DNA of 64,000 bases, from assembly GCA_026983835.1 (NCBI GenBank), contig JALSTH010000104.1, forward strand, positions 3,862-67,861. Reading direction: 5' to 3'. The DNA is from Candidatus Zixiibacteriota bacterium. Its GTDB lineage: Bacteria > Zixibacteria > MSB-5A5 > UM-FILTER-46-8. Of the stretch, positions 7,148 to 64,000 are shown in pieces. The first letter of the stretch is position 1. Every line of letters begins with the position of its first letter. The notes beneath the pieces are model-generated. The model made no database searches and was not told where the DNA came from. It saw only the letters and a list, made by a program, of their open reading frames with translations. Position numbers and translations under genes: made by a program.

Positions 7148-7151
7148 AGCT

Positions 7152-15513: not shown

Positions 15514-16338
15514 ATGAAGAAATATTTGATAGTATTGTTATTTATTTTCGCAATTGTGTGGGCACCACAGATTTATTCGCAGGAACGGCCTGCTGTTCAT
15601 ACTACATATCCTGAAAATGGTTTGTCGGGATCGATTATAATTACTCCCAATGATTCAACCTGTGAGATAGGAACTGATGGAGGATATTTCCGCTATGATG
15701 TTTTGATTAGTAATAATTATAGCCATTTGGCAAACGGTTATATATGGGGGAAGGTGCATAGTGTCGAAACTGGTCAGGAATGGGGTCCCCTGCTTTTGAC
15801 ATCGCTAACCTTAGGCCCTTATGAAACTCTATTGATAGAGGATGCGGATTTATATGTTCCTTATTGTATAAGTGAGGGGTCCTATTTATTTGTCGTCAGT
15901 ATTGGATGCTATCCGATTATAGTCGATAGTGATACAGCCGAGTTCTTTAAGGATGGTGAATCTGAAATAGATTGTCCTCCCAACCTTCTTGTTGATGAAA
16001 ATACTAACATTCCGCCGGGATCGGTTGAGTCTTCGTGTAATGGTGGTAGTATCGATGATAGCGGAATTATCCCTATGGCATTCAACATAAATAAAATTTA
16101 TCCTAATCCTTTTAATGCGTCGGTTAAAATAGATTTCAGCTTGTTCCAACCCAATGAAGTAAGAGTTAAAATTATAAATCTTGCGGGGGAGGTAATCGAA
16201 ACTCTTGAAAACAATTATATGGATGCCGGTGAACACGAGCTGATTTGGAAGGCATCTTCGAAGTCGTCAGGAATATATTTTATAGAATTAGAAGTTTCCG
16301 GGAAAAAGGAAATACGGAAGATATCTTTAATAAAATAA
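15514..16338 (+). CDS. Secreted protein with a type IX secretion system C-terminal sorting domain (Por_Secre_tail / type A CTD); the passenger domain has no known function
   Basis: N-terminal signal peptide MKKYLIVLLFIFAIVWAPQIYSQ. The C-terminal ~80 aa carry the canonical CTD motifs KIYPNPFNASVKIDF, SGIYFIELEV and a terminal KEIRKISLIK. Confidence 0.85.
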   Translation: MKKYLIVLLFIFAIVWAPQIYSQERPAVHTTYPENGLSGSIIITPNDSTCEIGTDGGYFRYDVLISNNYSHLANGYIWGKVHSVETGQEWGPLLLTSLTLGPYETLLIEDADLYVPYCISEGSYLFVVSIGCYPIIVDSDTAEFFKDGESEIDCPPNLLVDENTNIPPGSVESSCNGGSIDDSGIIPMAFNINKIYPNPFNASVKIDFSLFQPNEVRVKIINLAGEVIETLENNYMDAGEHELIWKASSKSSGIYFIELEVSGKKEIRKISLIK

Positions 16339-20228: not shown

Positions 20229-21152
20229 TCAAAAAGACTTTATGGGATTGTAAATCAGCGATACCAAAAGTTCACCAATTTGCTTAAGACTTTTTGGCGA
20301 ACATTTATCCGGCGTGTCAGATAGAGTGTGCCAATATGGATAATCAAAATCAATTATATCCACCATCGGGATACCTGCTTTTATCAGGGGTATATGGTCA
20401 TCGTAAACTTGATATTTAAGACGAGGGACAAAGCTTACTAACCCCAGCTCAGCAATAGCCCTACTGATCCATATCGATTCAACCAACGCTGGATTTGTGT
20501 AATAGGAATACTCCTCCATATATATTTGTAAATCCTTATCTCCGATCATATCCAAAAGTATCCCGTAGTCGGGGTAAGGGTAGGACTTTTGCGAAGCATA
20601 GTATTTGGAACCGAGGGAGAAATGCTCCAAGTCTCCCGCTTTTCCCCAATCCTCCCCGTCAAACAAAACAATTGTAATGCCAATCGGCGGCGGATATGTC
20701 GAAACCAAGCGAGCTATCTCCAAGAGAACTGCCACCCCAGAGGCACCATCGTTTGCTCCCAAAATAGGTTTTAACGCCTTTGTGGAATCACTTTCCTTGT
20801 CGGCACGAGGCCTAGTATCCCAGTGGGCACACAGAAGGATTCTATTTTGTTTCAACAAATCGAAAGAGGTAATTATGTTATACATTGGGATTGTGTTGTT
20901 CGGCAATTCGGGAGTGAAGTTTTGTTTTTCAACCGAATTGGAGTATTTTTTCAGATATGATACCAAAAATTCCCCGCATAGTCGATGTCCTTCTCCGCCG
21001 GGATTTCGGGTGCCAAAAGAGCATTGTTTCTCCAAAAGTCTAAAAGCATTCTTCTCATCGAAAAAGGGATATCCTTCGGGTTGGTTTTGAGCGAATCCAT
21101 CAATGCCGCAAAAGAGAACAGCAATTATAATTACCGAAAGTATTTTATTCAT
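20229..21152 (-). CDS. M28-family zinc peptidase-fold protein, glutaminyl-peptide cyclotransferase-like (secreted/lipoprotein)
   Basis: Signal peptide MNKILSVIIIAVLFCGIDGFAQ. Metal-site motifs CAHWDTRP, GANDGASGVAVLLEIA and VLFDGEDWG. Its start codon overlaps the sprA-like stop by 1 nt (translational coupling). Confidence 0.6.
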   Translation of the reverse strand: MNKILSVIIIAVLFCGIDGFAQNQPEGYPFFDEKNAFRLLEKQCSFGTRNPGGEGHRLCGEFLVSYLKKYSNSVEKQNFTPELPNNTIPMYNIITSFDLLKQNRILLCAHWDTRPRADKESDSTKALKPILGANDGASGVAVLLEIARLVSTYPPPIGITIVLFDGEDWGKAGDLEHFSLGSKYYASQKSYPYPDYGILLDMIGDKDLQIYMEEYSYYTNPALVESIWISRAIAELGLVSFVPRLKYQVYDDHIPLIKAGIPMVDIIDFDYPYWHTLSDTPDKCSPKSLKQIGELLVSLIYNPIKSF

Positions 21153-47131: not shown

Positions 47132-47665
47132 TTATATTGTACCAATCAGTTGCGTTTCATTTTCCTCAATCTCATCTTTAGTAATTTCGGCAGGGTTATC
47201 CCTGAACAAATAGTATTTTGTCGAGTAATCGCTATCGGTCAATGGGATCTGGACTGCCTTTTTGTTTTCTAGATTTACGATAATTGGCCCAAGAAGATTG
47301 ATGCTTATCTCCTCAGGTTCTTTCGGAGGAATGGTTACTACTACGAATATTCTTGCATTAGATGGATTTACTGTCCCGATTCCTGCTAAATCACCTGCGT
47401 GAACCCGTACTTCATAGTCGGGCTTGAAATATAAAGGGTCCACTATCGGGAAGGCGATGGATGGATTCTTAACGGATTGAAGCCAGAGAAAAGGCATCGT
47501 GGATTCTCGTTCAATAAGCACATATTCATGCAAACTCTCAAATCCTAATAATCCTTTGGGAAATAATATAATGTCCCGTTCATTGAACCGAATTTCTCCA
47601 AAGCGGGTGGACTTGACTTTTCGCACAACCGATTTAGCGATTTTTTCCGTAATTATTGTTTCCAT
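47132..47665 (-). CDS. fliW: Flagellar assembly factor FliW (CsrA antagonist)
   Basis: ILFPKGLLGFESLHEYVLIE, the FliW signature. Length 177 aa. Directly downstream of flgL. Confidence 0.85.
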   Translation of the reverse strand: METIITEKIAKSVVRKVKSTRFGEIRFNERDIILFPKGLLGFESLHEYVLIERESTMPFLWLQSVKNPSIAFPIVDPLYFKPDYEVRVHAGDLAGIGTVNPSNARIFVVVTIPPKEPEEISINLLGPIIVNLENKKAVQIPLTDSDYSTKYYLFRDNPAEITKDEIEENETQLIGTI

Positions 47666-47669
47666 AATT

Positions 47670-49580
47670 TTAGCTCAAAAAGTTAACTAATGATGGTTGA
47701 ATTACTTTAGCGACCGTAGCCAATGCCGCCTGATAAACTACTTCTTGGTTGGCTAGGTTGCTGACCGCATTTAGCATATCAGCATCCTCTACATCGGAAA
47801 GCAATTTGGTTATATACACCTGATAATCGAGATTTTTGGAATCCACGCTATCAAGCCGATTTATTCTGCTACCGACAACAGATCTTAATGAAAGTATTTG
47901 ATTTTGGGCTAATTGAAAACGGTCAATTGTTTCCTGAGCGGTTGATACCCAATTATTTTCCAACCCCTTTTGCAAATAAAGTAAACTCCCGACTAAATCC
48001 GGGCTACCCGCTATGCCCAATTGACTTGCCGACCCATTTTCGTCGGTATCATAAACAATTAACGATTGGCCGCTTACCGTAGATTCCAAGATAACTCCGG
48101 TTTTATCGTCGTTCAGACGCATCTTAACTTGAGCCCCCGACCCCTCAATCATATCCATCAAGTCCTTGATGGTTGCATCGGGATTATCATCGAGTGATGA
48201 TAAATCGATATTAACTGAATTATGACCGTTTACAATGTTTATAAGCGAATTGGTAATCCCCAAATTATTGCGTAAATTTGTAAGCTTGGTATTATAGGTC
48301 AAACGCGGATCGACATCATCCCCATCATAAACCATTTGCGATGTGCTGAATAGGATTCCCAAATCCGAGGCAGTTGATTCGCCATCGGCGGATTCCTCAA
48401 TCGATATCATTAGGGGATTTAAATCGCTCCCCACAAATTCACCATTAATAGGCTCGGAGGTTAATAATCCCAAGTCTTCCGCCACACTCCCGCCATCCTC
48501 CTCAACCGTGTAATCCAACCCTAACGAATCGTTTAAGGTTATGGAATTGCCCTCATTCGTTATCGATGCGCTCAAGCCCGGTATTGCGGCATTATTTATG
48601 GCGTCTATTACATCACCCAAATCCTCCGCACCTGTGAGATCTATCGTATATTCGGTTCCGGTGCCGTCTTTAATCGTAAAGGTTGGAATGGAAAGATCCA
48701 CCCCCGAACCGCTATTGAGCATAGATAACGAAGTGTTAACGGTAATATATGGGTCGGATGTATCCTCAAAATGAAAGGAATTTCCCGCATCGGAGATAGA
48801 TACAGTAAAATTGGACAAACCTTGAGAGGCGGCTTGGGAATTAATCGCATCGAGGGCATCACCGATAGAAACAACTCCCGTTAAATCGATATCCGCAGTT
48901 CCGTTCAATGTTTCGATCGTAAAATGATTATCGCCTAAATTTACACCATTTCCACCATTGAGGTTGATAAGTAATGTGTCTCTCGAAAGACCGGGATTCA
49001 AATCATATCCATCACCGAGAACCGTAACCGGTTTTAATAAGAAATCGGAGCCGGGTATGTTGGCGGTAATCATCATATTCCTGTCTATTTCATAGCTCAG
49101 ATCGCCGTTGTCACCTCGATATACAACCCCCATTCCATTGAAATCATACGGGGCTGTTTGAGTCATATGTCCGGCAAAAATATATTTATTCTGATAGGAA
49201 TTATTCCCCGTGGATATTATTTGTTTAATTATATCGCCAATTTGCTGGGAGGCGGCTATTCTCGCATTATCATCATAGGTACCGTTCGATAATTGTAAGG
49301 CTACATCCTGAGCTTGGATAACAAAATCGTTAATAGCCGAAAATGACGAATCGGAATAATTCAACATCGTCCGCGCCGTCCCGATGTTCCGTTGGAATTG
49401 ATCGAGCTCATTCAGATAAGTACGGTAACCGAGCGCTTTGGTGATGCCGATAGGATCGTCCGAGGGCTTATTGATTCTTCTTCCGCTTGAGACAATTGTC
49501 TGCAGTTCCATATAGCGGGAGAATGAGGTCGTTAGATCCCGAACGGCGCGGTCTATAATCATTTGATTGGTAATTCTCAT
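47670..49580 (-). CDS. flgL: Flagellar hook-associated protein 3 FlgL (long form with large variable central domain)
   Basis: Flagellin-like N-terminal helix (MRITNQMIIDRAVRDLTTSFSRYMELQ...) and C-terminal helix (...AALATVAKVIQPSLVNFLS). The central ~400 aa are hypervariable and Gly/Asp/Ser-rich. Confidence 0.8.
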   Translation of the reverse strand: MRITNQMIIDRAVRDLTTSFSRYMELQTIVSSGRRINKPSDDPIGITKALGYRTYLNELDQFQRNIGTARTMLNYSDSSFSAINDFVIQAQDVALQLSNGTYDDNARIAASQQIGDIIKQIISTGNNSYQNKYIFAGHMTQTAPYDFNGMGVVYRGDNGDLSYEIDRNMMITANIPGSDFLLKPVTVLGDGYDLNPGLSRDTLLINLNGGNGVNLGDNHFTIETLNGTADIDLTGVVSIGDALDAINSQAASQGLSNFTVSISDAGNSFHFEDTSDPYITVNTSLSMLNSGSGVDLSIPTFTIKDGTGTEYTIDLTGAEDLGDVIDAINNAAIPGLSASITNEGNSITLNDSLGLDYTVEEDGGSVAEDLGLLTSEPINGEFVGSDLNPLMISIEESADGESTASDLGILFSTSQMVYDGDDVDPRLTYNTKLTNLRNNLGITNSLINIVNGHNSVNIDLSSLDDNPDATIKDLMDMIEGSGAQVKMRLNDDKTGVILESTVSGQSLIVYDTDENGSASQLGIAGSPDLVGSLLYLQKGLENNWVSTAQETIDRFQLAQNQILSLRSVVGSRINRLDSVDSKNLDYQVYITKLLSDVEDADMLNAVSNLANQEVVYQAALATVAKVIQPSLVNFLS

Positions 49581-49626
49581 TTACATCTCCCCTTCTTGGC
49601 TATACAAAACCTGAAAAAAGAATAAA

Positions 49627-49896
49627 TCATTTTTCACCATTATCTTTTTTATTCTCGCCGTTTCTTTTATGCTTTCGCAACAGATCGCTCATCCTTTCAA
49701 TATCCGCACCTTGAGCTTTGGCGGCATCAATATTTTCCTTTAGAATTTTTTTATAGATTTCCTCACGGTGAACTGAGATTTCCGGAGGCGCGATAATGCC
49801 TAAACGAACCTGCCTCCCTTGAATTCCAAGCACCCTGACGGTTACATCATCTCCTATTGCTATTGACTCACCAATCCTCCTTGTCAATATTAACAT
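49627..49896 (-). CDS. csrA: Carbon storage regulator CsrA (post-transcriptional regulator)
   Basis: [48 protein letters not shown] is near-identical in pattern to E. coli CsrA. Confidence 0.9.
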
Positions 49897-49951
49897 TTTA
49901 CCCTCCCTGGCAATTTCAATGTAAAGGTTAGAAACCCTTTTCCATAACTTC

Positions 49952-55975: not shown

Positions 55976-56704
55976 TTATCTAATATTGCCGAGATTATTG
56001 ATGGAGCGTTGAGCAACTCCGTCAAGTATCTGAACCATTTTTTGTTTAATTTCAAATTCCCGAAAACTTGTTATCATATCCACCATTTGATTTAAAGCCG
56101 AGCTGTTTGATTCCTCCAAATATCCCTGCCGAACATTATAATCGGTTGCCGTTTGAGGTTCTATCCCGTCCGGAGCCGTAAATTCGGTATTCCCCGCTTT
56201 GACAAGGTTTTCCGGATTATTAAATTTTACAATTTTTATTTTGGCGAGCGTTTCGCCATTTGTTTCAATATTCCCTTCGACATCGATGGAAGGATTGTTC
56301 GTATCCAGAATAATCGGACCTGAATCCGATAATACTTTATCACCATTGGCGGTAACCAAGGCTCCCGACGGATCAAGGCGAAAACTTCCATCACGAGTAT
56401 ATTTAATTCCATTTTCGGTTTCGATGGTAAAGAAGCCCTCACCTTCTATGGACAAATCCAAAGGCATATCCGTTTTACGGAAGGATGATTGTGTCATATC
56501 AATTATATGTCTTTCTTTTATCGGCGCTTCCCAATCGTAATCTTTGGGGAGATATTTCTGCTCCGCCTTCGAAACAGCCTCCGCGAATATCCCATCCTTT
56601 TTATATCCTATGGTGCCGCTATTCGCGAGATTGTTAGCAATGGCTTCCTGCTTAAAAGCATTGGTGAACATACTGGTCGCAGCCTCATACAATCCTTTAA
56701 TCAT
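55976..56704 (-). CDS. flgF: Flagellar proximal rod protein FlgF
   Basis: MIKGLYEAATSMFTNAFKQEAIANNLANSGTIGYKKD N-terminus and C-terminal rod-family helix LEESNSSALNQMVDMITSFREFEI. Confidence 0.8.
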   Translation of the reverse strand: MIKGLYEAATSMFTNAFKQEAIANNLANSGTIGYKKDGIFAEAVSKAEQKYLPKDYDWEAPIKERHIIDMTQSSFRKTDMPLDLSIEGEGFFTIETENGIKYTRDGSFRLDPSGALVTANGDKVLSDSGPIILDTNNPSIDVEGNIETNGETLAKIKIVKFNNPENLVKAGNTEFTAPDGIEPQTATDYNVRQGYLEESNSSALNQMVDMITSFREFEIKQKMVQILDGVAQRSINNLGNIR

Positions 56705-56751
56705 CTATATATCCTTCCTTGACTTTTCGATTGTAGCCGATATATATCAAA

Positions 56752-56766
56752 GCAATTATTGTGCCG
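56752..56766 (-). promoter_or_regulatory. Sigma-54 (RpoN) -24/-12 element upstream of the flgF operon
   Basis: Minus strand reads cGGCACaataaTTGCt, with invariant GG and GC at correct spacing. The -12 element is about 48 nt upstream of the flgF ATG, which has a strong Shine-Dalgarno (AAGGAAGG). Confidence 0.55.
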
Positions 56767-56987: not shown

Positions 56988-57428
56988 TTATTTACCTGTC
57001 GATTGTTCCTTTTTGTTGGTGGAATTCAATCGCCAAATGGTCTTCTCAACAACCAGGGATATCTCGTGAGTTTTGAAGGGTTTTGTTATATACTCATCTG
57101 CACCCAACAGTAGAGCATCTTTTACCGTAAATATTTCCCCATAGCCGGTCATAATAATCACGCCGATTTTTGGATTCTCGGCTTTAAGTCTTTTTAGAAG
57201 CTCGAACCCGTTCATTTTAGGCATCTTGATATCAGAGATTACCAAATCTATTCTTTCGGTTTTGACTATCTCGAGGGCATCAAATCCGTTTTGCGCTTTT
57301 ATGACATCATAGCCATCTTTTTTTAATATCGTCTCCAAAAGTTTTAGCATTGGAGCTTCATCGTCAACCACCAGTATTCTCATTTTATATTCCACAATTT
57401 CCTCTAAGTTAAAATAATTCCATTTCAT
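56988..57428 (-). CDS. Single-domain response regulator receiver (CheY-like)
   Basis: ILVVDDE, VISDIKMPKMNG, IIMTGY, TKPF. Confidence 0.8.
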   Translation of the reverse strand: MKWNYFNLEEIVEYKMRILVVDDEAPMLKLLETILKKDGYDVIKAQNGFDALEIVKTERIDLVISDIKMPKMNGFELLKRLKAENPKIGVIIMTGYGEIFTVKDALLLGADEYITKPFKTHEISLVVEKTIWRLNSTNKKEQSTGK

Positions 57429-57470
57429 AGATGTAAAATTCGATAAACAATTAATCCATAATGTATCACC

Positions 57471-57866
57471 TCAAGACTGCTTCTCGGGATTCAATCGTTT
57501 TAAAAGATTAACGACCCGTTTGATATCAGCCATCATCAAAGAAAATGAATTTTCTATTTCTCTTAAAGTTTTCAAATCGAATTCATATCTCTTTTTAAAG
57601 GAGCTATAATCGAAGGAGTTTAATCCCTCCGTTGCTAATTTGGACAGCTCTTCTATTTTAGAGGTGGCATCTGATGATTTGGTTGCCAGATCATTCAACG
57701 CCTTTCCAAGCTCACTTTGTCTGCCATAATTTTTCCCAATCATCTTAGCGGCTATCGATATATTGATGGCGGAGAATTGAGCTTGCTGCATAATTTCACG
57801 CAGATATTCGATTACATTCTTCAGCTCCTGCCCTTCCGGCGGTTTATCGATGGTTTTATTACTCAC
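57471..57866 (-). CDS. Hypothetical helical protein; faint resemblance to an MCP signalling-hairpin segment
   Basis: 131 aa. AINISIAAKMIGKNYGRQSELGKALNDLA loosely parallels the MCP motif [27 protein letters not shown]. The similarity is weak. Confidence 0.35.
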   Translation of the reverse strand: MSNKTIDKPPEGQELKNVIEYLREIMQQAQFSAINISIAAKMIGKNYGRQSELGKALNDLATKSSDATSKIEELSKLATEGLNSFDYSSFKKRYEFDLKTLREIENSFSLMMADIKRVVNLLKRLNPEKQS

Positions 57867-57879
57867 CGTTCCCCCCTTG

Positions 57880-58233
57880 TTATATTTTAAGCAATTCGCT
57901 TATTTTCTCTTTTAATTGTGCCAGATCGCTCGATTTAACAATGTATGCGTCCGCCAACCAAGAGGAAAAGTCATCCTTGTAAATTGAATATGCCGAATTG
58001 AGAATAACCGGAGTATCGGTATGTTTCCTGCGGAATTCATTCAAAACCTCCAATCCATCCATATCATCCATTTTGATATCAAGCACCATAAGGTCTATTT
58101 GATTATCTTGAGCGACCCTTAATGCTTCTGTACCGCTGTTTGCGATTAGGACATTATATCCTTCTTCGACCAACTCGTGCTCATAAAGTTTGCTTAGCAC
58201 TTTCTCGTCATCGACAACTAAAACATTATGCAT
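57880..58233 (-). CDS. Single-domain response regulator receiver
   Basis: VLVVDDE, LMVLDIKMDDMDG, ILNSAY, VKSS (receiver Lys present). 5 nt downstream of the kinase gene. Confidence 0.8.
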   Translation of the reverse strand: MHNVLVVDDEKVLSKLYEHELVEEGYNVLIANSGTEALRVAQDNQIDLMVLDIKMDDMDGLEVLNEFRRKHTDTPVILNSAYSIYKDDFSSWLADAYIVKSSDLAQLKEKISELLKI

Positions 58234-58238
58234 CCTTT

Positions 58239-59978
58239 TTACTCCTTGTATAATGGTAGTTTTATATAAACCGATAATGGTTTATCTTTCCCTTGCTCTA
58301 TTCCAATCATTCCAAGGTGTCTATTTATTATCTCATTGGCAATTGTCAGCACCGTATCGCGTTTCAGGGGGCTATTTCCATAAAGAGCTTCAAATATCGT
58401 ATTCGGATGTTTTTTACCCGTATCGGATATTTGGGGAATAAAATTAAGCAATACCGCTTCTCCCTCTATTTTTGTTGAGACTGAAATAGGAAAAGATTCC
58501 TTGTCATCTTTTATAAATTGTTTTGCCACAGATAAGATAGCGTTTCGTAATTGTGCCTCGCCGCCAAAGATTTTTGCATTACCTTCCATTTTGTTTATCT
58601 CAAATATCCTCATACCCGAAGAAGAATTGTTCTCGGCGATATTTATTACTCCCTTAACTAATTCCGAGAAGTTTATAATTGTTTTTTCCTCCGGAGCCGT
58701 TTTGGATAAACTGTCAAAAGTTTCGAGGACTTTTTCTATCCTCTCTACTTCCTTGATTATTATTTCCATAAATTCGGAGAATTTGTCATCATCATCCATT
58801 TTCCTTTTAATATTTTTGGCATACCCCCCGATTACCGATAAAGGATTACGGATTTCGTGTGCGACTTGAGAGGCCATCTTTCCTATAGCGGTCAACTTTT
58901 CGCTCTCGATTAATTTCTTCTGGCTCTCCCTAATTTTTTCATTCGCCGATGAAAGCTCATTTATCTTCTCCGCCAACTCTTCATACAAACGGGAACGCTG
59001 GATAGCCGTACCGGCATGGTTGGCAAAAATCCCCAATACTTCCAAATCGGAATCATCGACCGGTCTACGGGTTATCATATTATCCGCCAATAGTAAGCCT
59101 ACGATATTTCCCTCAACCATTAGTGGAGCTGCTGCAAAACAATCAATCCCCAAGATCTTGAACAAGGACCATCCATTTTCGGTCGAATCATTACAGGAGC
59201 CTTCTTTTATTATGCGCGGTTTTTTGTTGCGAATTACCTTTGATAGCTGCTCACATAAATTATCAATGGGGATAAATATTTCCCGCACCAACTCGTTTAC
59301 CTTAACATCCCTTTTTAGGGTAGCGTTCTTATAATTATTAATTAATTCATCCAACGATTTCGGCGATCCATCCAATTCCATCCAGATTGCAGCTGCTTCT
59401 TCCCCATCGGAGGGACCTATTGCGACCTCCCCCCTAAAAGCTTTATTCTCCGCATCGTAAAGTAGCAGGAATGCCCTATTGAAACCCAACCCCTCACCGG
59501 CGGTTGCTCCAATAAGGATTATTTTAAATGTATCTTCCAGCCTATACGAATGATCGAGCTTCCTCCCCAATTCATTTATAACCGCAGTAATATTATAATT
59601 CCTTATGGAATTGTCTGCGTTTTTACGGTTTGGCGATTGTGAGATCTGATATATTGCTGTTTCACCAAAACCAAAAGAATCGGAAGGTAAATGTGTTATA
59701 TAATACGGAGGCTCATCCTTCCCAATTGAGATTCGACATACTTTACTCCCGTCCTCCGAATTATTCCATTCGCCATCCTTAAATATACCGATTATATTAT
59801 CAATTAGTGTGGGCGAAATCTCATTCGAGGAATATTTATCGTTCAAGAGCCAAAACTCTTTGTTAGCCCATAAGAGATTATCGTTGCGAATAATCAATAT
59901 GGGATTTCGAACGCATTCCTTATCGCTGTCTGAGTAATTTCGGTCCTTTTCCTTTTTTTCCACAATAGCTTTAATCAT
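58239..59978 (-). CDS. GAF-domain sensor histidine kinase (cytoplasmic; ATP-lid motifs somewhat degenerate)
   Basis: Central GAF region, HisKA H-box MASQVAHEIRNPLSVIGGY, and N-box LRNAILSVAKQF. The G-boxes are weak. Confidence 0.7.
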   Translation of the reverse strand: MIKAIVEKKEKDRNYSDSDKECVRNPILIIRNDNLLWANKEFWLLNDKYSSNEISPTLIDNIIGIFKDGEWNNSEDGSKVCRISIGKDEPPYYITHLPSDSFGFGETAIYQISQSPNRKNADNSIRNYNITAVINELGRKLDHSYRLEDTFKIILIGATAGEGLGFNRAFLLLYDAENKAFRGEVAIGPSDGEEAAAIWMELDGSPKSLDELINNYKNATLKRDVKVNELVREIFIPIDNLCEQLSKVIRNKKPRIIKEGSCNDSTENGWSLFKILGIDCFAAAPLMVEGNIVGLLLADNMITRRPVDDSDLEVLGIFANHAGTAIQRSRLYEELAEKINELSSANEKIRESQKKLIESEKLTAIGKMASQVAHEIRNPLSVIGGYAKNIKRKMDDDDKFSEFMEIIIKEVERIEKVLETFDSLSKTAPEEKTIINFSELVKGVINIAENNSSSGMRIFEINKMEGNAKIFGGEAQLRNAILSVAKQFIKDDKESFPISVSTKIEGEAVLLNFIPQISDTGKKHPNTIFEALYGNSPLKRDTVLTIANEIINRHLGMIGIEQGKDKPLSVYIKLPLYKE

Positions 59979-60017
59979 TGGAAATCTTTTCCTCTAATAG
60001 CTTCTATGCAATTAGGA

Positions 60018-60623
60018 TTAACTGTTCTTTCCGGTAAATGATAAAATAACTCTCCCGCCCTTCCTTATTGAATCTCCATCGGAAAACCTGCTTCGGCGGT
60101 TCCCGATTTCGCTTCTGGTATATTGCCATCCCAACAATGATGATATTTGGCTTGCTATTATCTTTATTATATCAAGATCCAATTTTCCGAATGAATCGGG
60201 CTCTTCGTTGCTGACATTAATAACACCCATCAAGTCATCACTTATAATAATAGGAACAGACATAAAGGAATGAATATGATTATCAACCGATTCCCTATAT
60301 CGCTTGATGTTAGGCATAAATATCGGCTTACGATATTTTGCTACCCACGACGAAAAGCCTAAACCGAGATCGAATTTAACAAATGATATCAGATCGTTTT
60401 TCCTCCCTATTTTCACTACCTCCTCAAGTTTATTTTCTCTCGGGTTTAATGCAAATATGCAAGCGGAGGAATAACTTATCGCTCCGCCCATTGTTTCGAG
60501 AATTTCTAAAAAGGTCTCCTTTCCTTTGGTTTCTTTCTGGATTAACTCTCCGATTCGCTGCAGCGTTTTGAACTGTTGTATTACACGCTCCACATCATAG
60601 AGATCGCGTTTCCCTTTCGGCAT
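60018..60623 (-). CDS. Stand-alone GAF-domain protein
   Basis: 201 aa with a GAF-like fold pattern (ISYSSACIFALNPRENKLEEV...MSVPIIISDDLMGVINV). Confidence 0.65.
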   Translation of the reverse strand: MPKGKRDLYDVERVIQQFKTLQRIGELIQKETKGKETFLEILETMGGAISYSSACIFALNPRENKLEEVVKIGRKNDLISFVKFDLGLGFSSWVAKYRKPIFMPNIKRYRESVDNHIHSFMSVPIIISDDLMGVINVSNEEPDSFGKLDLDIIKIIASQISSLLGWQYTRSEIGNRRSRFSDGDSIRKGGRVILSFTGKNS

Positions 60624-60682
60624 ATTTTCCCATCCTTGGTTGTTTGTGATCCTCTAAGGAACTGCTGCTCGTTAATTAATCC

Positions 60683-61306
60683 TTAAAATAGTATATAGTA
60701 TCCTCCCTTTTTTATTTTTTCGAGTTGTGTCGAAATAGTATCGGCTATACTATGCGCTAATTCATTATAAATCATTTCATTATCCACCGCGTTCAATAGA
60801 TTGTCCGTCCTATTCGGCTCATATTCAAAAAATTGAGCGCTTTTATTTATATTTATCCGAAACTCAAATTTGCCGCTTTTCGGACGAACAATCGATTTTG
60901 GATCCATAATCTTGTAATCCAATTCCGCATATAAATACTTCGAAAAACGATTCATCAGATAAGGGATCGAGAGGTTCTTTTTAATTTCCCGTTCGAGGCG
61001 GGAGATCCTGTATTCTACTATGTAATCGGAATTAGGATCGACACGCGCAAGCGGGTCCAAACGGGATTTGATAAATATCCCCTTGTTCTTTGATGTTCCG
61101 TAAAGGGTATCCGTATTTAACCATTGGGTATAATTGTCCGCCTTCGATCTATTCGAAAGAATATTATTTACGATATGGGATATTTCGGCACCATTGTCGG
61201 AATGAATGATATATGCTTCTATCCTTTTATCATCCCCCGCATAAGAATTTATGGCCGATAATAGAGTCAAATAAATGAGAGATATAATTAATAAACTTTT
61301 CATCAT
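60683..61306 (-). CDS. Hypothetical secreted protein
   Basis: Signal peptide MMKSLLIISLIYLTLLSAINSYA. No recognisable domain. Confidence 0.45.
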   Translation of the reverse strand: MMKSLLIISLIYLTLLSAINSYAGDDKRIEAYIIHSDNGAEISHIVNNILSNRSKADNYTQWLNTDTLYGTSKNKGIFIKSRLDPLARVDPNSDYIVEYRISRLEREIKKNLSIPYLMNRFSKYLYAELDYKIMDPKSIVRPKSGKFEFRININKSAQFFEYEPNRTDNLLNAVDNEMIYNELAHSIADTISTQLEKIKKGGYYILF

Positions 61307-61821
61307 TACCTCAATTCAGTAATGGCTTCCTGTTTTAATCGTTTTGCCAATACATATTTTGATATTACTCTATTGACGCTTTCATTGAAATTCGATAACT
61401 CGTCTGTTATAATTTCTTTGTCCGTCAGTTGAAATCGTCCGACAAGCTCGCCTTGTTCAACGAATTCTATTCCGGTTAGATATTCGGAATGTTCTATTTT
61501 TTCGACCCGTTTCGCTTTCCCAATTACATTTTCGATAGATTCAAGTCCCCTCAAATCGAGCTTTAATGCCACATACGAATCAACTTTTAGTTTTGTATCG
61601 ATCGCCGCCAAAATGCCGCTTCCCGATATATTTAAAATCATACCGTGAATTATTTTCTTGTTTATTAATCCCCTATTTTTATTAAATGGCAGGTTTAATT
61701 TCCTTAAAGTAAACGGTGAAGCTATATCTATCCTTACGGAATTACGCTTTTTCCCTTTCTCTTTTTGCGGCGTGATTTTTTTCTTGGTTTTCTGTTTTAT
61801 CTCTGTTTTGTTCTTGTCCAT
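61306..61821 (-). CDS. PilZ-domain protein (c-di-GMP receptor candidate)
   Basis: RNSVRIDIA (RxxxR) and ILNISGSGI (D/NxSxxG) motifs about 25 aa apart. The start is set at MDKNKTEIK (~61821) because the longer track ORF would overlap the upstream gene. Confidence 0.6.
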   Translation of the reverse strand: MDKNKTEIKQKTKKKITPQKEKGKKRNSVRIDIASPFTLRKLNLPFNKNRGLINKKIIHGMILNISGSGILAAIDTKLKVDSYVALKLDLRGLESIENVIGKAKRVEKIEHSEYLTGIEFVEQGELVGRFQLTDKEIITDELSNFNESVNRVISKYVLAKRLKQEAITELR

Positions 61822-61831
61822 TTTTCCCTCT

Positions 61832-63025
61832 TTACTTCTTTTTAATAGACTTAGCCGATTTTTCCATTTCAAAAACTTTTTTCGCTTGAGTCGTGGCTTT
61901 TTCAACAATGCTCTTGACCCGTTGGATATCGGCGATCGCATTGGCCCTATTCATTATAAAGGTACGCCCGCCATTTATCGTGGAATTAAAATACTTTTTC
62001 GATTCCTCAAAATCCCCGACCCTTCTTGCTAATTCACCTATCAAGTAAAACGCCTGCAACGATTGAGAGCCATCCTTAAGTTCCCTCCCCCCTTCCGAGC
62101 ATTTTTTGTAATACTCTTTGGCATATTTTAATGCTTCTTCTTCATTGGTAGGTAATTCAGGCATCAATTTCTTGACTTTCTCAAGAAAATAACGAAAGTC
62201 CGGGAAATTTTTAAACCCAATTAATTGTTGTTCCCCGTTCATATCGATGGAGGTAATCTCTTTAGCGGCAAAATCCCTTAATAAGTCTATTCGCGATATT
62301 GATTCCTTGGAGTAATGTAATAAATCATTTAGCAAATTCAATTGCTTTGATACTTCAACATTTGGAGTTTTATCGTTTTTATTCCCGAAAAGTGTATCGG
62401 AATTTTCATTATAAAACAAAGCGAGTTCTTTTATGGAATCCTTAAAAGCATACAAATTAGATTCCAAGCTATTGATTTTACCGTTTAATTCGGAAACTAA
62501 CCCTCCCCTTTTCCCCGTTGTCTGTGATTTTACTATCCCCAATTCCCGAAATAGCCATCCAATCCTTAAATAAAATCTGCCAATTGATAAAAAACTGGGA
62601 TGTGAATTTAGCCTCTCATCATAAATCGCCAATATTATTTTGCATATCGCAGTCTCGTAGGGATAATTTTTCGGATCCAAAACCCCGCCAATTAATTGTA
62701 GCAAACTATCATCAGTATCGAGAGCGGCTAAATGTTTTTCTTTTAGTGCGGGAAGTTTATAAGTTCGAAAATGTGTATTTTTTGTCCATTCCTTTAATTT
62801 ATCGTTAAATTCCGCGGAATAAAAACAGTTTGGACAAGTAGCGATAAAATATAATAGAGGGTTGATCCCCGTCATTTCATTACTCGACCATACAATACCC
62901 AACGGCATAAAATCCGTATCCACTCCGGAAATTCTATATGCTCCCTTTTTCAGGTTCTCGAATTTATTATCCGAACCACAAATCGGACATTTTACACTGC
63001 TGTAAAATAAAGGCGCTTTGTCCAT
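61832..63025 (-). CDS. Hypothetical protein with an N-terminal zinc ribbon and C-terminal helical/TPR-like region (DUF2225-like)
   Basis: CPICGSDNKF...CPNCFYSAEF has four Cys in a zinc-ribbon arrangement. The remainder is helical. Confidence 0.45.
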   Translation of the reverse strand: MDKAPLFYSSVKCPICGSDNKFENLKKGAYRISGVDTDFMPLGIVWSSNEMTGINPLLYFIATCPNCFYSAEFNDKLKEWTKNTHFRTYKLPALKEKHLAALDTDDSLLQLIGGVLDPKNYPYETAICKIILAIYDERLNSHPSFLSIGRFYLRIGWLFRELGIVKSQTTGKRGGLVSELNGKINSLESNLYAFKDSIKELALFYNENSDTLFGNKNDKTPNVEVSKQLNLLNDLLHYSKESISRIDLLRDFAAKEITSIDMNGEQQLIGFKNFPDFRYFLEKVKKLMPELPTNEEEALKYAKEYYKKCSEGGRELKDGSQSLQAFYLIGELARRVGDFEESKKYFNSTINGGRTFIMNRANAIADIQRVKSIVEKATTQAKKVFEMEKSAKSIKKK

Positions 63026-63137
63026 AGGAATCCCACCTTGAAAAGGTTCTTTTTATTATTGTATCGGCAGAATAATGATTTTTCTCCATATATCGCTTCG
63101 CTAAAGTAATACTTAATATAAATGCCTTACCCCCATG

Positions 63138-63608
63138 CTATCCCCGTAAATCCGTAAGCATTTCTTCTTCTGCCGTTGATAATTTCTTAAATGTTGCGGC
63201 CGAATGTCTCCTTTTGATTTTTCGGGGTTTTATAGAATTTCTTTTGGTTGCTGAAGGATGTTTAACGGTTGACCTTTGGTTGTTTCTGTTTATCGGCTTG
63301 GCGTCGATATTAGCCTGCTTCCCATTTGATAAAACAGGAGTAATTCGGGTTTGGTCGGCAGATGTAGATGTTCGTTTATTATTGCTATCCTTTTTCTTCT
63401 GCATCTCGGCTTCTTTCAACAATCGGGTAAGCATTGAAGTATCGATCGATTTTGGAGAGCCAATAGCCTTATCCAATCGAGATTTGATATCCGCGGTCAG
63501 CCTCTTTTGACGCTGAATGATATTATAAAAGATTGCAAAAAAACCTAACCCCATAAAGAAATTTGCCAATGAAACAATTATTAGCAGATTATCCATTTTT
63601 AACAACAT
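63138..63608 (-). CDS. Hypothetical membrane-anchored basic protein
   Basis: N-terminal TM (LLIIVSLANFFMGLGFFAIF) followed by a K/R/S/T-rich tail. Confidence 0.4.
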   Translation of the reverse strand: MLLKMDNLLIIVSLANFFMGLGFFAIFYNIIQRQKRLTADIKSRLDKAIGSPKSIDTSMLTRLLKEAEMQKKKDSNNKRTSTSADQTRITPVLSNGKQANIDAKPINRNNQRSTVKHPSATKRNSIKPRKIKRRHSAATFKKLSTAEEEMLTDLRG

Positions 63609-63620
63609 TTAACAGCTCCT

Positions 63621-63950
63621 CTAAATATGTATATCTATATGTTTCTTCTCGGCTTCTGTCTTTTGACTCTTTTCAACCGAAGTATCCGATGAGTTCAAAT
63701 CTTCCCCTTGATTTTCGTCCTGCTTCTTTTTGTCTTTCTTATCATCCTTTTTCTTATCCTCACGGTGGATGACGACTTCATCCGCTTTATCGGAATGTTG
63801 GATTTTTTTGTGGCGTGCTTTATTTTTTTCTCGGATTGCGGCTTCGAATTGTTGTTGGGTTATGTCGGGTTGTGCTTTTTCGAGTTTCGCTATTTTTTCG
63901 GCGGCTTGGGTTTTCGCCAATACATTTTGAAGGTCAACCGGTTGTGCCAT
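63621..63950 (-). CDS. Hypothetical Lys/Glu-rich helical protein
   Basis: 109 aa. It is the first gene of the minus-strand signalling operon. No motif recognised. Confidence 0.35.
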   Translation of the reverse strand: MAQPVDLQNVLAKTQAAEKIAKLEKAQPDITQQQFEAAIREKNKARHKKIQHSDKADEVVIHREDKKKDDKKDKKKQDENQGEDLNSSDTSVEKSQKTEAEKKHIDIHI

Positions 63951-64000
63951 AACCCCCCCTATTTATTAAACTTATCCTTAATCATATTTCGCAACCTTAA

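What the first reader, a model, noticed from the sequence alone, without database searches (positions are those of the whole stretch)
56988..63950. Seven-kb sensory operon (PilZ, GAF, GAF-kinase, three small helical proteins, two receivers) feeding directly into the flagellar promoter region
Ten co-directional genes with near-zero spacing end 250 nt upstream of the sigma-54 element of the flg operon. Content includes a PilZ c-di-GMP receptor candidate (RxxxR / NxSxxG), a stand-alone GAF protein, a GAF histidine kinase with a partly degenerate ATP lid, two CheY-like receivers, and several unannotatable small proteins. One of these (57471..57866) weakly echoes the MCP signalling hairpin. This looks like a dedicated second-messenger/phosphorelay input to motility that does not match a named system.
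Basis: partly seen in the sequence, partly recalled or inferred. Interest (0 to 1): 0.55.

Follow-up and report, generated by a model that had tools for sequence, protein, structure and literature searches.

The report
Flagellar-cluster signalling module of Zixibacteria
The ten genes are real and form a module kept next to the flagellar sigma factor gene fliA in nearly every Zixibacteria genome examined; it combines a c-di-GMP receptor, a kinase-like sensor that has lost its ATP site, two phospho-receivers and a miniature copy of a chemoreceptor tip, and probably tunes the flagellum after it is built rather than switching on the neighbouring flagellar promoter.

Summary

The framing needs correcting in four ways:
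- **Not a free-standing operon.** On the source contig the block directly continues fliR-flhB-flhA-flhF-flhG-fliA.
- **It travels with fliA, not flgF.** fliA lies just upstream in 60 of 61 evaluable Zixibacteria loci. flgF follows in only 7 of 46.
- **No transcriptional output.** No DNA-binding or sigma-54 activator domain passes a curated threshold in the block. A canonical PAS kinase and NtrC-type activator sit about 50 kb away, beside motAB.
- **No evident ATP-competent kinase.** g07 keeps its His box but has no recognisable ATP-binding boxes (HATPase_c matches 7 of 51 orthologues, not the window copy). All receivers keep invariant phospho-acceptor residues.

Positive results:
- The PilZ protein scores below Pfam's cut-off, but 64 of 64 orthologues match PilZ and the RxxxR/NxSxxG residues are invariant.
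- The 131-aa protein is a true remote homologue of the chemoreceptor signalling tip (E 6.7e-10 to TM1143). It belongs to a small unannotated family seen only in Zixibacteria.
- The missed 397-aa gene is DUF2225, a family recently tied to Leptospira motility.

Most likely this is a late-flagellar, post-translational control module. Interest is moderate: a new variant of a known kind.

The parts
63959..64000 (-). 3' end of fliA (sigma-28); the rest lies beyond the window edge
   Evidence: Source contig L001 has fliA at 5256-6020, 8 nt before g01, preceded by flhG, flhF, flhA, flhB and fliR.
63621..63950 (-). g01: 109-aa highly charged, probably disordered protein of unknown function. It has a conserved N-terminal helix, a D-x-V-x-I-H-R motif and an H-x-D-x-K-A C-terminus.
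   Evidence: No Pfam, NCBIfam or PDB match. An orthologue directly follows fliA in 67 loci. Alignment A8.
63138..63608 (-). g02: 156-aa protein with one N-terminal membrane helix and a low-complexity tail. A protein of about 140 aa holds this position in relatives.
   Evidence: Sequence. Position conserved in 51 loci. A pooled scan of g01, g02 and g05 orthologues gave four weak DUF2802 matches, best E 2.4e-4; assigning them to g02 is my inference.
63061..63069 (-). TGCCGATAC: sigma-28-type -10-like element, 36 nt before the g03 start codon
   Evidence: TGCCGATA lies at -40 to -50 before the DUF2225 gene in L003-L006, L028, L032, L042, L054 and L062. The motif occurs 10 times in the window against 2.2 expected. 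One copy lies 51 nt before motA. The -35 part is unclear.
61832..63025 (-). g03: DUF2225 protein of 397 aa, with an N-terminal four-Cys zinc ribbon, TPR/MIT-like helical repeats and a long coiled-coil insert
61306..61821 (-). g04: single-domain PilZ protein of 171 aa, the candidate c-di-GMP receptor
   Evidence: RNSVR and NISGSG motifs. R26, R30, N64, S66 and G69 are invariant in 64 orthologues. All 64 match PF07238 at E<=0.01. hhalign gives 99.8% probability against the neighbouring YcgR-like paralogues of other Zixibacteria. The window copy scores 19.5 bits, below the gathering score of 22.5.
60683..61303 (-). g05: secreted (signal peptide, no lipobox Cys) protein of 206 aa with a PelC/FlgT/CsgG-like N-terminal domain
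   Evidence: Profile A7 hits PelC 9H80_C at E 4.6e-5, and 5T10/5T11. In the pooled g01/g02/g05 scan, single members hit FlgT_M and CsgG. Present in 44 of 46 evaluable loci.
60018..60623 (-). g06: stand-alone GAF protein of 201 aa. In most other Zixibacteria the protein at this position is GAF plus HisKA with no catalytic domain.
   Evidence: GAF_2 at E 7.9e-12. L019:13804-14685 is GAF plus HisKA only.
58239..59978 (-). g07: 579-aa sensor with an N-terminal region that matches no family, then GAF, a HisKA DHp domain and a degenerate catalytic domain
   Evidence: HisKA 48 bits and GAF 34 bits, with no HATPase_c match. Among orthologues HisKA matches 51 of 51 and HATPase_c only 7 of 51. By eye, only L060 shows all four canonical N, G1, F and G2 boxes in the alignment. 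H374, E375, R377, N378 and P379 are invariant or nearly so. The best PDB match is ThkA, 3A0R_A.
57880..58233 (-). g08: stand-alone receiver of 117 aa, TrrA-like
   Evidence: Response_reg at E 2e-22. The best PDB match is TrrA, 3A0R_B, at E 4e-28 over the full length; the next match is at 1e-15. D8, D9, D52, S/T80 and K100 are invariant in 46 orthologues. In the locus maps it is present where the long g07-type protein is present and absent where that protein is absent.
57471..57866 (-). g09: 131-aa helical protein, a homologue of the chemoreceptor signalling tip alone
   Evidence: 30 of 65 orthologues hit PF00015. The family profile against PDB returns MCP signalling domains as its top hits: 2CH7 at 6.7e-10, Tsr 1QU7 at 7e-6. 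An exhaustive search returned 73 representatives, nearly all 105-135 aa, plus two bona fide MCPs. The AF2 model has three helices and pLDDT 83. It has no histidine. Present in 46 of 46 evaluable loci.
56988..57395 (-). g10: stand-alone receiver of 135 aa (146 aa if the ATG at 57428 is used)
   Evidence: Response_reg at E 1.9e-33. The best PDB matches are Spo0F at 7e-26, ahead of CheY at about 1e-17. The D, D, D, T, K quintet is invariant or nearly so in 55 orthologues.
56751..56766 (-). CGGCACAATAATTGCT: sigma-54-type -24/-12 element before flgF. It belongs to the neighbouring flgF operon, not to the module.
   Evidence: An equivalent element lies at -62 to -71 of flgF in L003, L004 and L005. 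The count in the window is not significant on its own: 3 found against 1.06 expected.
55976..56704 (-). flgF, first gene of the downstream flgF-G-A-H-I-J-N-K cluster
   Evidence: Pfam families listed for the source contig.

Best explanation
The ten genes are the distal part of a flagellar gene cluster conserved across Zixibacteria (fliR-flhB-flhA-flhF-flhG-fliA, then g01 to g10). They most likely encode an accessory module expressed with the late flagellar genes that adjusts motor or chemosensory behaviour after translation. They probably do not regulate the neighbouring flgF promoter.

Shown:
- The order and content of the block are conserved.
- The PilZ protein keeps every canonical c-di-GMP-contacting residue.
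- The receivers keep every phospho-acceptor residue.
- The kinase-like sensor keeps its His box, with the H-E-x-x-N phosphatase motif, but has no recognisable ATP-binding boxes.
- g09 is homologous to the chemoreceptor signalling tip.
- DUF2225, PilZ and g09 are the invariant core. The kinase-like protein and g08 appear and disappear together across loci.

Inferred:
- g04 reads c-di-GMP and acts together with the DUF2225 zinc-ribbon/TPR scaffold. It would work as a brake, as its YcgR-like paralogues in sister lineages are thought to, or as a c-di-GMP-gated binder of chemosensory proteins, as FilZ does.
- g07 with g08 is a ThkA/TrrA-like pair in which g07 now works as a ligand-gated (GAF) phosphatase or phosphotransfer hub for g08 and g10. 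The phosphoryl groups would come from a kinase encoded elsewhere, such as CheA or another histidine kinase, or from acetyl phosphate.
- The tip-only MCP homologue g09 either docks this branch to chemoreceptor-array proteins (receptor trimers, CheW, CheA) or mimics a receptor tip.
- g05 is a periplasmic ring-type accessory protein.
For: Context: the source contig shows fliA 8 nt upstream of g01.

Synteny in 80 Zixibacteria loci:
- fliA lies upstream in 60 of 61 evaluable loci.
- Of 46 loci evaluable downstream: PilZ 46, g09 46, g05 44, receivers 44, long kinase-like protein 38, flgF within 9 kb only 7.
- FapA follows the module in the three loci tested, L009, L028 and L064.

PilZ (g04):
- 64 of 64 orthologues match PF07238, and the RxxxR and NxSxxG residues are invariant.
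- hhalign gives 99.8% probability against YcgR-like paralogues that carry PilZNR plus PilZ.
- FilZ is a precedent: a single PilZ-domain protein in a flagellar cluster that binds a CheW homologue (PMC10304486).

DUF2225 (g03): a motility phenotype is reported in Leptospira.

Kinase-like sensor (g07):
- HisKA matches 51 of 51 orthologues; HATPase_c matches 7 of 51 and not the window copy.
- The motif alignment shows the N-box Asn and the G2 glycines missing.
- The His box is conserved.
- The ThkA and TrrA structures are the top PDB hits for g07 and g08.

Receivers: the phospho-acceptor quintets are invariant or nearly so.

g09: homology to the MCP tip.

Promoters and outputs:
- A sigma-28-type -10 element lies before g03, is conserved in relatives, and also occurs before motA.
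- No DNA-binding or AAA+ domain passes a curated threshold in any of the ten proteins.
- A complete PAS kinase with an NtrC-type activator lies elsewhere in the window.
Against: - There are no expression, binding or phosphorylation data. The organism is uncultured.
- Loss of ATP binding is inferred only from missing motifs and failed HMM matches. An unusual ATP site cannot be excluded, and the L060 orthologue has an intact catalytic domain.
- No cheA, cheW or full-length MCP gene and no GGDEF/EAL gene lies in the 64-kb window. The proposed partners and the c-di-GMP source were therefore not seen.
- The receivers resemble Spo0F and TrrA more than CheY.
- The window PilZ copy is below Pfam's gathering score, and the PilZ profile found no PDB relative.
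- Foldseek on the g09 model gave only generic helical bundles.
- In the window's own clade the block does abut a conserved sigma-54-type element of flgF, so a local regulatory link cannot be ruled out.
- The -35 part of the proposed sigma-28 promoter is unclear.
Confidence: 0.5

Rival explanations
1. Transcriptional input. The PilZ, GAF and receiver proteins sense second messengers and control the sigma-54 promoter of the flgF operon immediately downstream, through a partner activator encoded elsewhere.
For: The block ends 222 nt before a -24/-12 element that is conserved in position in L003-L005. Stand-alone receivers can modulate other regulators. An NtrC-type activator exists in the window at 7152-8546.
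Against: No HTH or AAA+ domain passes a curated threshold in the block. flgF adjacency is seen in only 7 of 46 evaluable loci, whereas fliA adjacency is seen in 60 of 61. In most lineages FapA or unrelated genes follow the block. The activator in the window already has its own complete kinase next to it.
Confidence: 0.08
2. Mainly structural or assembly role. g01, g02, DUF2225 and the PelC-like g05 are lineage-specific parts or chaperones of the Zixibacterial flagellum, for example a periplasmic ring or an export-gate scaffold. The PilZ, GAF, kinase-like and receiver genes would then be a regulatory cassette that merely shares the transcript.
For: g05 hits the ring-forming lipoprotein PelC, and single members of the pooled g01/g02/g05 set hit FlgT_M and CsgG. 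g05 has a signal peptide. DUF2225 has a scaffold-like TPR fold, and the Leptospira mutant has a motility defect without a change in cell shape. The genes sit among export-apparatus genes. Reduced loci keep DUF2225, PilZ, g05 and g09 without the kinase-like protein or receivers.
Against: PilZ and g09 belong to the invariant core and are signalling-type proteins. The PelC and FlgT matches are weak. Nothing shows that any of these proteins is part of the flagellar structure.
Confidence: 0.2
3. Ordinary working two-component system. g07 is an active kinase with a divergent nucleotide pocket that phosphorylates g08 and g10 in response to a GAF ligand, and g09 is an accessory modulator.
For: The His box is conserved, the receiver sites are invariant, and the pair resembles ThkA/TrrA. 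The catalytic-domain fold appears retained: the C-terminal HGG motif is conserved and NCBIfam kinase models align through to residue 576. The L060 orthologue has canonical boxes.
Against: 44 of 51 orthologues, including the window copy, fail HATPase_c at E<=0.05. The Mg-ATP Asn of the N box and the glycines of the G2 lid are replaced across the family. The second DHp protein of sister lineages has no catalytic domain at all.
Confidence: 0.15
4. g09 is a CheZ-like helical phosphatase or an Hpt-like phosphotransfer protein sitting between the two receivers.
For: It lies between two receiver genes and is a small helical bundle.
Against: It has no histidine at all, so it cannot be an Hpt protein. 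I saw no CheZ D-x3-Q or CheC/CheX E-x2-N motif in the conserved core when reading alignments A2 and A5. Its sequence homology points specifically to the MCP tip. It persists in loci that have no receivers.
Confidence: 0.05

Closest known systems
YcgR / FlgZ / MotI (DgrA) flagellar-brake PilZ proteins, and FilZ of Pseudoalteromonas
   Same: g04 is a PilZ domain with intact RxxxR and (D/N)xSxxG motifs encoded inside a flagellar gene cluster. It is a clear paralogue (hhalign 99.8%) of the PilZNR+PilZ proteins encoded just upstream of it in most other Zixibacteria. Like FilZ, it is a single-domain PilZ protein in a flagellar cluster (PMC10304486).
   Different: g04 lacks the YcgR-type N-terminal PilZNR domain and has a roughly 45-residue C-terminal helical extension. 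The window's clade has lost the YcgR-like copies. Its partner proteins are unknown.
ThkA-TrrA two-component pair of Thermotoga maritima (PDB 3A0R)
   Same: g08 is most similar to TrrA (E 4e-28, full length). The g07 DHp domain is most similar to ThkA. Both are a sensor-DHp-CA protein followed by a stand-alone receiver.
   Different: g07 carries GAF, and PAS in many orthologues. Its catalytic domain lacks recognisable N, G1 and G2 boxes, whereas ThkA is an active kinase (my own knowledge). Orthology was not tested.
Spo0B and ChpT histidine phosphotransferases, and kinase-derived pseudokinases such as RcsD (named from my own knowledge)
   Same: A DHp domain with a conserved histidine joined to a catalytic-like domain that has lost its ATP-binding motifs, encoded beside stand-alone receivers.
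   Different: No sequence relationship beyond the shared kinase fold was shown. g07 retains sensor domains and the H-E-x-x-N phosphatase motif. Phosphotransfer was not tested.
Methyl-accepting chemotaxis protein signalling domain (PF00015; Tsr, TM1143)
   Same: The g09 family aligns to the hairpin tip. Its core motif EEVKxLALNLAIxLAK corresponds to the receptor motif [12 protein letters not shown], including the nearly invariant Asn.
   Different: g09 is only about 120-130 aa. It has no methylation helices, HAMP, ligand-binding or membrane regions. Most members lack the GRGFAVVA turn motif. A third helix is predicted. It scores below Pfam's gathering score.
DUF2225 motility factor LEPBIa0550 of Leptospira biflexa (PMC12236494)
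   Same: Same Pfam family. Both are linked to flagellar motility, genetically in Leptospira and by gene position here.
   Different: Different phylum. I did not compare the two sequences directly. The mechanism is unknown in both.
fliA-cheY-cheZ-cheA-cheB-motCD-cheW arrangement of Pseudomonas and Vibrio (from my own knowledge)
   Same: Signalling genes are placed directly after flhF-flhG-fliA. One Zixibacteria clade even has a CheB-type domain next to g09.
   Different: There is no CheA, CheW or CheZ here. The kinase-like protein is of the HisKA class. In the one copy read (L064), the CheB-like domain lacks the catalytic Ser and His.

Membership tests
PilZ domain (PF07238) | RxxxR motif | tested here: met
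   RNSVR at residues 26-30 of g04. R26 and R30 are invariant in 64 orthologues.
PilZ domain (PF07238) | (D/N)xSxxG motif | tested here: met
   NISGSG. N64, S66 and G69 are invariant.
PilZ domain (PF07238) | Profile match at the curated threshold | tested here: inconclusive
   The window copy scores 18.7-19.5 bits, below the gathering score of 22.5. All 64 orthologues match at E<=0.01, best 4.8e-11. hhalign gives 99.8% probability against paralogues that pass the threshold. The profile found no PDB sequence.
PilZ domain (PF07238) | Binds c-di-GMP | not testable with these tools
   Needs a binding assay.
YcgR family | N-terminal YcgR/PilZNR domain before the PilZ domain | tested here: not met
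   g04 has only a Lys-rich leader before the PilZ domain. PilZNR occurs in the 245-260-aa paralogues of other Zixibacteria and not in the window.
Sensor histidine kinase (HisKA + HATPase_c) | DHp domain with a phospho-accepting His | tested here: met
   HisKA at 48 bits. H374 is nearly invariant and the HEIRNP motif is conserved.
Sensor histidine kinase (HisKA + HATPase_c) | ATP-binding catalytic domain with N, G1, F and G2 boxes | tested here: not met
   No HATPase_c match at E<=0.1. Only 7 of 51 orthologues match. The N-box Asn and the G2 glycines are absent.
Spo0B/ChpT-type phosphotransferase | DHp with His plus a catalytic-like domain unable to bind ATP | tested here: inconclusive
   The architecture fits. 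Loss of ATP binding is inferred from motifs only.
Spo0B/ChpT-type phosphotransferase | Shuttles phosphoryl groups between two receivers | not testable with these tools
   Needs phosphotransfer profiling.
Receiver domain (PF00072) | Acidic pair, phospho-Asp, Thr/Ser and Lys quintet | tested here: met
   g08: D8, D9, D52, S80, K100. g10: D11, D12, D55, T83, K105. These are invariant or nearly so in 46, 55 and 44 orthologues of the three receiver types.
CheY | Orthology to chemotaxis CheY, and binding of FliM/FliN | tested here: inconclusive
   The best PDB hits are TrrA for g08 and Spo0F for g10. CheY proteins rank lower, at about 1e-17 for g10 and 1e-9 to 1e-10 for g08. Binding is not testable.
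Methyl-accepting chemotaxis protein | Signalling-tip sequence | tested here: met
   The family profile hits TM1143 at 6.7e-10, plus Tsr, PcaY and Aer. 30 of 65 members hit PF00015. The reverse check also holds: an exhaustive search with the profile recovers two MCPs. Single sequences stay below the gathering score of 34.6.
Methyl-accepting chemotaxis protein | Long four-helix bundle with methylation helices, usually with HAMP or sensor modules | tested here: not met
   g09 has 131 aa and three predicted helices of 28-37 residues, with no other domain. It is therefore not filed as an MCP.
DUF2225 (PF09986) | Profile match above the curated threshold, with a four-Cys zinc ribbon | tested here: met
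   86.6 bits against a gathering score of 21. C13, C16, C64 and C67 are invariant.
Sigma-54 promoter with its regulator in the block | GG-N10-GC element conserved in position | tested here: met
   Element at 56751-56766. Equivalents occur in L003-L005. The window-wide count is not significant on its own.
Sigma-54 promoter with its regulator in the block | An AAA+ enhancer-binding protein encoded in the block | tested here: not met
   None among the ten proteins. The only one in the window is at 7152-8546.
Single operon | Co-transcription of the ten genes | not testable with these tools
   Short gaps and the absence of terminator-like sites above chance are compatible with co-transcription. A sigma-28-type -10 element before g03 suggests an internal start. 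RNA data are needed.

The most novel reading that the evidence does not exclude
The module is a repurposed, enzymatically hollowed-out chemosensory pathway. It holds a receptor reduced to its tip, a kinase without an ATP lid and, in one clade, a CheB-type domain that lacks the catalytic Ser and His in the one copy read. The binding sites for phosphoryl groups (receivers) and c-di-GMP (PilZ) are strictly kept. Together with DUF2225 it would form a new kind of scaffold-based flagellar control device specific to Zixibacteria, with the tip-only receptor homologue as a new protein class that plugs into, or mimics, chemoreceptor arrays.
Probability: 0.2. Interest if true: 0.7.

Novelty: new variant of a known kind. 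Interest (0 to 1): 0.45.

Why it matters
Flagellar clusters that carry c-di-GMP receptors and two-component genes are well known, so the general theme is ordinary. Three things here are not described in the literature I could search.
- A family of about 120-aa proteins homologous only to the chemoreceptor signalling tip. It is invariably encoded with a PilZ protein and DUF2225 next to fliA.
- A kinase-like sensor that has lost its ATP-binding motifs across most of a phylum, while its partner receivers stay fully phosphorylatable.
- A second, independent link between the uncharacterised DUF2225 family and flagellar motility, after the Leptospira mutant.

If the tip-only protein really engages chemoreceptor arrays or the PilZ protein, it would give a compact system for asking how c-di-GMP and phosphorylation signals converge on motility. 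It would also give a functional lead for DUF2225. The organisms are uncultured, so testing would have to be heterologous.

Tried and rejected
- **g09 as an Hpt protein.** Rejected: it contains no histidine.
- **g09 as a CheZ- or CheC/CheX-type phosphatase.** I saw no D-x3-Q or E-x2-N motif in the conserved core when reading the alignments.
- **Foldseek of the g09 model against PDB.** Only generic helical bundles, best E 0.04.
- **AlphaFold database fold search.** The library was not available.
- **PilZ family profile against PDB sequences.** No hit at E<=0.01.
- **g01 profile against PDB, and g01/g02/g05 against NCBIfam.** Nothing.
- **g01 as FlgM.** No FlgM match in 21 orthologues. Kept only as a positional idea.
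- **Literature on the ThkA/TrrA genomic context and on Zixibacteria flagella.** Nothing useful. A search on pseudokinases combined with flagella found no papers.
- **GGDEF/EAL motif scan of all six frames of the window.** No cyclase or phosphodiesterase; two chance E-x-L-x-R strings.
- **Counting sigma-54-type elements in the window.** Not significant on its own: 3 found against 1.06 expected. The flgF element rests on position and conservation.
- **Taxon labels.** 23 of the related records are titled Ignavibacteria, Ignavibacteriales or Ignavibacteriaceae, and one Deferrimicrobium. Their loci are collinear with those titled Zixibacteria. I could not check the labels.

Full report
**What is there.** The region 56988-63950 holds ten ORFs on the minus strand. 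The gaps between them are 12, 112, 10, 2, 59, 39, 5, 13 and 75 nt. No terminator-like site beyond chance was found on that strand.

Pfam and NCBIfam give the following:

| Gene | Coordinates | Size | Result |
|---|---|---|---|
| g01 | 63621-63950 | 109 aa | no family; highly charged |
| g02 | 63138-63608 | 156 aa | no family; one N-terminal membrane helix |
| g03 | 61832-63025 | 397 aa | DUF2225, 86.6 bits |
| g04 | 61306-61821 | 171 aa | PilZ, 19.5 bits (gathering score 22.5) |
| g05 | 60683-61303 | 206 aa | no family; signal peptide |
| g06 | 60018-60623 | 201 aa | GAF |
| g07 | 58239-59978 | 579 aa | GAF + HisKA; no HATPase_c |
| g08 | 57880-58233 | 117 aa | receiver |
| g09 | 57471-57866 | 131 aa | MCPsignal, 22.8 bits, E 9e-5 (gathering score 34.6) |
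| g10 | 56988-57395 | 135 aa | receiver |

A GG-N10-GC element (CGGCACAATAATTGCT) lies at 56751-56766. That is 222 nt after g10 and 47 nt before the flgF start codon. It missed that one of the unnamed genes is a large DUF2225 protein.

**Context beyond the window.** An exact-protein look-up found the source contig, a 179-kb ENA metagenome contig.
- fliA ends 8 nt before g01, and fliR, flhB, flhA, flhF and flhG precede it.
- Downstream come flgF, G, A, H, I, J, N and K, then csrA and flagellin.
- The block is therefore embedded in a flagellar supercluster, and its upstream boundary is an artefact of the window edge.
- Homologues of g03 are named Zixibacteria wherever a source gives a name.

**Conservation.** I aligned g03 homologues and used the alignment to fetch 80 loci from species-level genomes. 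I then mapped the window's proteins onto them by tblastn and by iterated HMMs.
- fliA lies within 2.5 kb upstream of the DUF2225 gene in 60 of 61 evaluable loci.
- Of 46 loci with at least 7.5 kb downstream: PilZ 46, g09 family 46, g05 family 44, receivers 44, a long GAF-HisKA protein 38, a short GAF or GAF-HisKA protein 35.
- flgF follows within 9 kb in only 7 of the 46.
- The usual order is fliA, g01, g02, DUF2225, one to three PilZ genes, g05, GAF-DHp, (PAS)-GAF-DHp-CA*, receiver, g09, (receiver), receiver.
- In the three loci I tested (L009, L028, L064) the protein after the last receiver is FapA. A protein of similar size holds that position in many other loci.
- Four reduced loci (L040, L046, L057, L075) keep DUF2225, PilZ and g09 (three also keep g05) without any kinase-like protein or receiver.
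- The long kinase-like protein and the g08-type receiver are present or absent together.
- The module belongs with fliA. Its contact with flgF is peculiar to the window's clade and two others.

**PilZ (g04).** The family-level evidence is clear, however.
- All 64 orthologues match PilZ at E<=0.01, best 4.8e-11.
- R26, R30, N64, S66 and G69, the RxxxR and NxSxxG residues, are invariant.
- Most other Zixibacteria carry two more PilZ genes upstream of it. In the locus tested (L019) these are YcgR-like, with PilZNR plus PilZ.
- Profile-profile comparison of g04 orthologues with those proteins gives 99.8% probability, E 6e-29, over 160 columns that include a shared C-terminal extension.
- g04 is therefore an N-terminally shortened paralogue of flagellar-brake-type proteins.
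- FilZ of Pseudoalteromonas is a precedent for a single-domain PilZ protein in a flagellar cluster. In its apo form it binds a CheW homologue (PMC10304486).

**Kinase-like sensor (g07) and receivers.**
- HisKA and GAF match all 51 orthologues, and PAS matches 28. HATPase_c matches only 7, and not the window copy.
- In the alignment only the L060 protein shows canonical N, G1, F and G2 boxes, by my reading. In the others the N-box Asn and the G2 glycines are replaced, while the terminal HGG fold motif remains.
- The His box (AHEIRNPL, H374) is invariant or nearly so, including the H-E-x-x-N pattern. From established knowledge, that pattern supports phosphatase activity in HisKA kinases.
- In sister lineages the g06 position holds a GAF-HisKA protein with no catalytic domain at all.
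- The phospho-acceptor quintet is invariant or nearly so in 46 g08-type, 55 g10-type and 44 middle receivers.
- The best solved relatives are TrrA for g08 (E 4e-28, well clear of the next hit at 1e-15), ThkA for the g07 DHp, and Spo0F for g10.
- I infer that g07 is a ThkA-like sensor that has become a ligand-gated phosphatase or phosphotransfer hub, and that the phosphoryl donor is encoded elsewhere. ATP binding itself was not tested.

**Tip-only chemoreceptor homologue (g09).**
- The family has a conserved core, EEVKxLALNLAIxLAK.
- 30 of 65 divergent orthologues hit MCPsignal independently; no other family is hit by more than three.
- The family profile against all PDB sequences returns chemoreceptor signalling domains as its top hits: TM1143 at 6.7e-10, Tsr at 7e-6, plus PcaY, Aer and tip fragments. 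The TM1143 alignment covers residues 117-239, the hairpin tip.
- An exhaustive profile search of 1.84 billion representatives found only 73 proteins at E<=1e-3. Nearly all are 105-135 aa.
- Of eight atypical hits I checked against Pfam, two are bona fide receptors and two are repeat-protein artefacts.
- Wherever a source names a database relative, it is called hypothetical, apart from one automatic 'TrmB regulator' label; the named ones are Zixibacteria or GN15.
- The AF2 model (pLDDT 83) has three helices, at 11-47, 52-83 and 98-125.
- The protein has no histidine, so it is not an Hpt.
- It is too short to be a chemoreceptor, so I do not file it as one. It is a new small family derived from the receptor tip.
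- In one clade a CheB-type methylesterase domain sits between g09 and the last receiver. In the one copy I read (L064), the catalytic Ser and His positions are replaced.

**DUF2225 and the other genes.**
- A 2025 preprint reports a motility defect, without a change in cell shape, for a DUF2225 mutant of Leptospira biflexa (PMC12236494).
- The g05 profile hits the ring-forming lipoprotein PelC at E 4.6e-5.
- A pooled Pfam scan of g01, g02 and g05 orthologues gave single weak hits to FlgT_M and CsgG, which I attribute to g05, and four weak DUF2802 matches, which I attribute to g02.
- g01 has no relatives outside its own family.

**Promoters.**
- The sigma-54-type element before flgF recurs at -62 to -71 in L003, L004 and L005. 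Its count in the window is not significant on its own.
- A TGCCGATA element lies 36 nt before g03. It recurs at -40 to -50 in every relative that has an intergenic gap of at least 50 nt there and a match to the motif (ten loci including the window).
- The motif is enriched in the window, 10 found against 2.2 expected, with no shuffle reaching 10.
- One copy lies 51 nt before motA.
- This fits a sigma-28-type -10 box and late-class expression of g03 to g10. The -35 part is unclear.
- No HTH or AAA+ domain passes a curated threshold in any of the ten proteins.
- A complete PAS-HisKA-HATPase kinase (5801-7147) and an NtrC-type activator (7152-8546) lie just upstream of motAB. They are the more natural candidates for sigma-54 control.

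**Interpretation.**
- The best reading (confidence 0.5) is a late-flagellar accessory module acting after translation.
- In this reading c-di-GMP is read by g04, working with the DUF2225 scaffold.
- Receiver phosphorylation is set by a ligand-gated g07 that no longer makes its own phosphoryl groups.
- g09 links the system to chemoreceptor-array proteins or mimics a receptor tip.
- Rivals: a transcriptional input to flgF (0.08); a mainly structural or assembly role for g01 to g05 (0.2); an ordinary active two-component system (0.15); g09 as a phosphatase or Hpt (0.05).
- The proposed partners (CheA, CheW, receptors) and any diguanylate cyclase were not seen in the window.

**Verdict.**
- It is a new variant of a known kind: flagellar clusters with PilZ and two-component genes are familiar.
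- The tip-only receptor homologue, the phylum-wide ATP-lid loss beside fully conserved receivers, and the DUF2225 linkage are new details.
- Interest 0.45.

Noticed in passing
window 5801-8546 (+) and 8626-10136 (+): A complete PAS-HisKA-HATPase_c kinase (5801-7147) and an NtrC-type sigma-54 activator with REC, AAA+ and HTH_8 domains (7152-8546) sit directly upstream of motA and motB. A TGCCGATA element lies 51 nt before motA. This looks like a FlgS/FlgR- or FleS/FleR-type pair and is a better candidate regulator of the sigma-54 element before flgF than anything in the block.
   Followed up: partly
window 8684-9441 (+): motA is split. 8684-9187 encodes the N-terminal 167 aa, and 9211-9441, in another frame, encodes what reads as the C-terminal part. 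This is a frameshift near 9190: either an assembly error or a pseudogene.
   Followed up: partly
window 63621-63950 (-): g01 is a roughly 100-aa, highly charged and probably disordered protein that directly follows fliA in 67 related loci. No canonical flgM is seen next to flgN in the cluster. It could be an anti-sigma-28 analogue, but no FlgM similarity was found.
   Followed up: partly
L064:14942-15547, and equivalent ORFs of about 200 aa in L027, L049, L052, L067 and L074: In one Zixibacteria clade an ORF lies between the g09 homologue and the last receiver. In L064, the only copy tested, it is a stand-alone CheB-type methylesterase domain (Pfam E 1.3e-16). The positions of the catalytic Ser and His read TDIGG and QP, so it is probably inactive.
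   Followed up: partly
L009:17663-19093, L028:13783-15213, L064:15990-17561: A FapA protein (FapA_N plus a beta-solenoid domain) follows the last receiver of the module in these three loci. A protein of similar size (about 470-520 aa) holds that position in many other Zixibacteria. It is absent from the window's clade, where flgF follows instead.
   Followed up: partly
window 1961-5339 (+): A GAF-SpoIIE phosphatase (1961-3271), a HATPase_c_2 anti-sigma-type kinase (3283-3750) and two stand-alone receivers (4245-4646, with a weak FleQ-domain match, and 4815-5339) form what looks like a partner-switching or receiver cluster just upstream of the kinase-activator pair.
   Followed up: no
window 15430-15444 (+) and 15514-16338 (+): A second good GG-N10-GC element (GGCACATAATTTGCT) lies 70 nt before a gene for a protein with a type IX secretion C-terminal sorting domain. 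A 1976-aa SprA-like protein is encoded at 21152-27082 (-).
   Followed up: no
window 12841-13104 (-): A full-length large-type bacterial SRP RNA (177.7 bits) lies next to a tRNA gene.
   Followed up: no
window 47132-49900 (-): csrA, a large flagellin of 636 aa and fliW are adjacent. This is the arrangement of the CsrA-FliW-flagellin partner-switch known from Bacillus (my own knowledge).
   Followed up: no
loci L005, L008, L009 and 21 others: 23 of the related genome records are titled Ignavibacteria, Ignavibacteriales or Ignavibacteriaceae, and one Deferrimicrobium. Their loci are collinear with, and as similar as, those titled Zixibacteria, so the labels may be misassignments.
   Followed up: no
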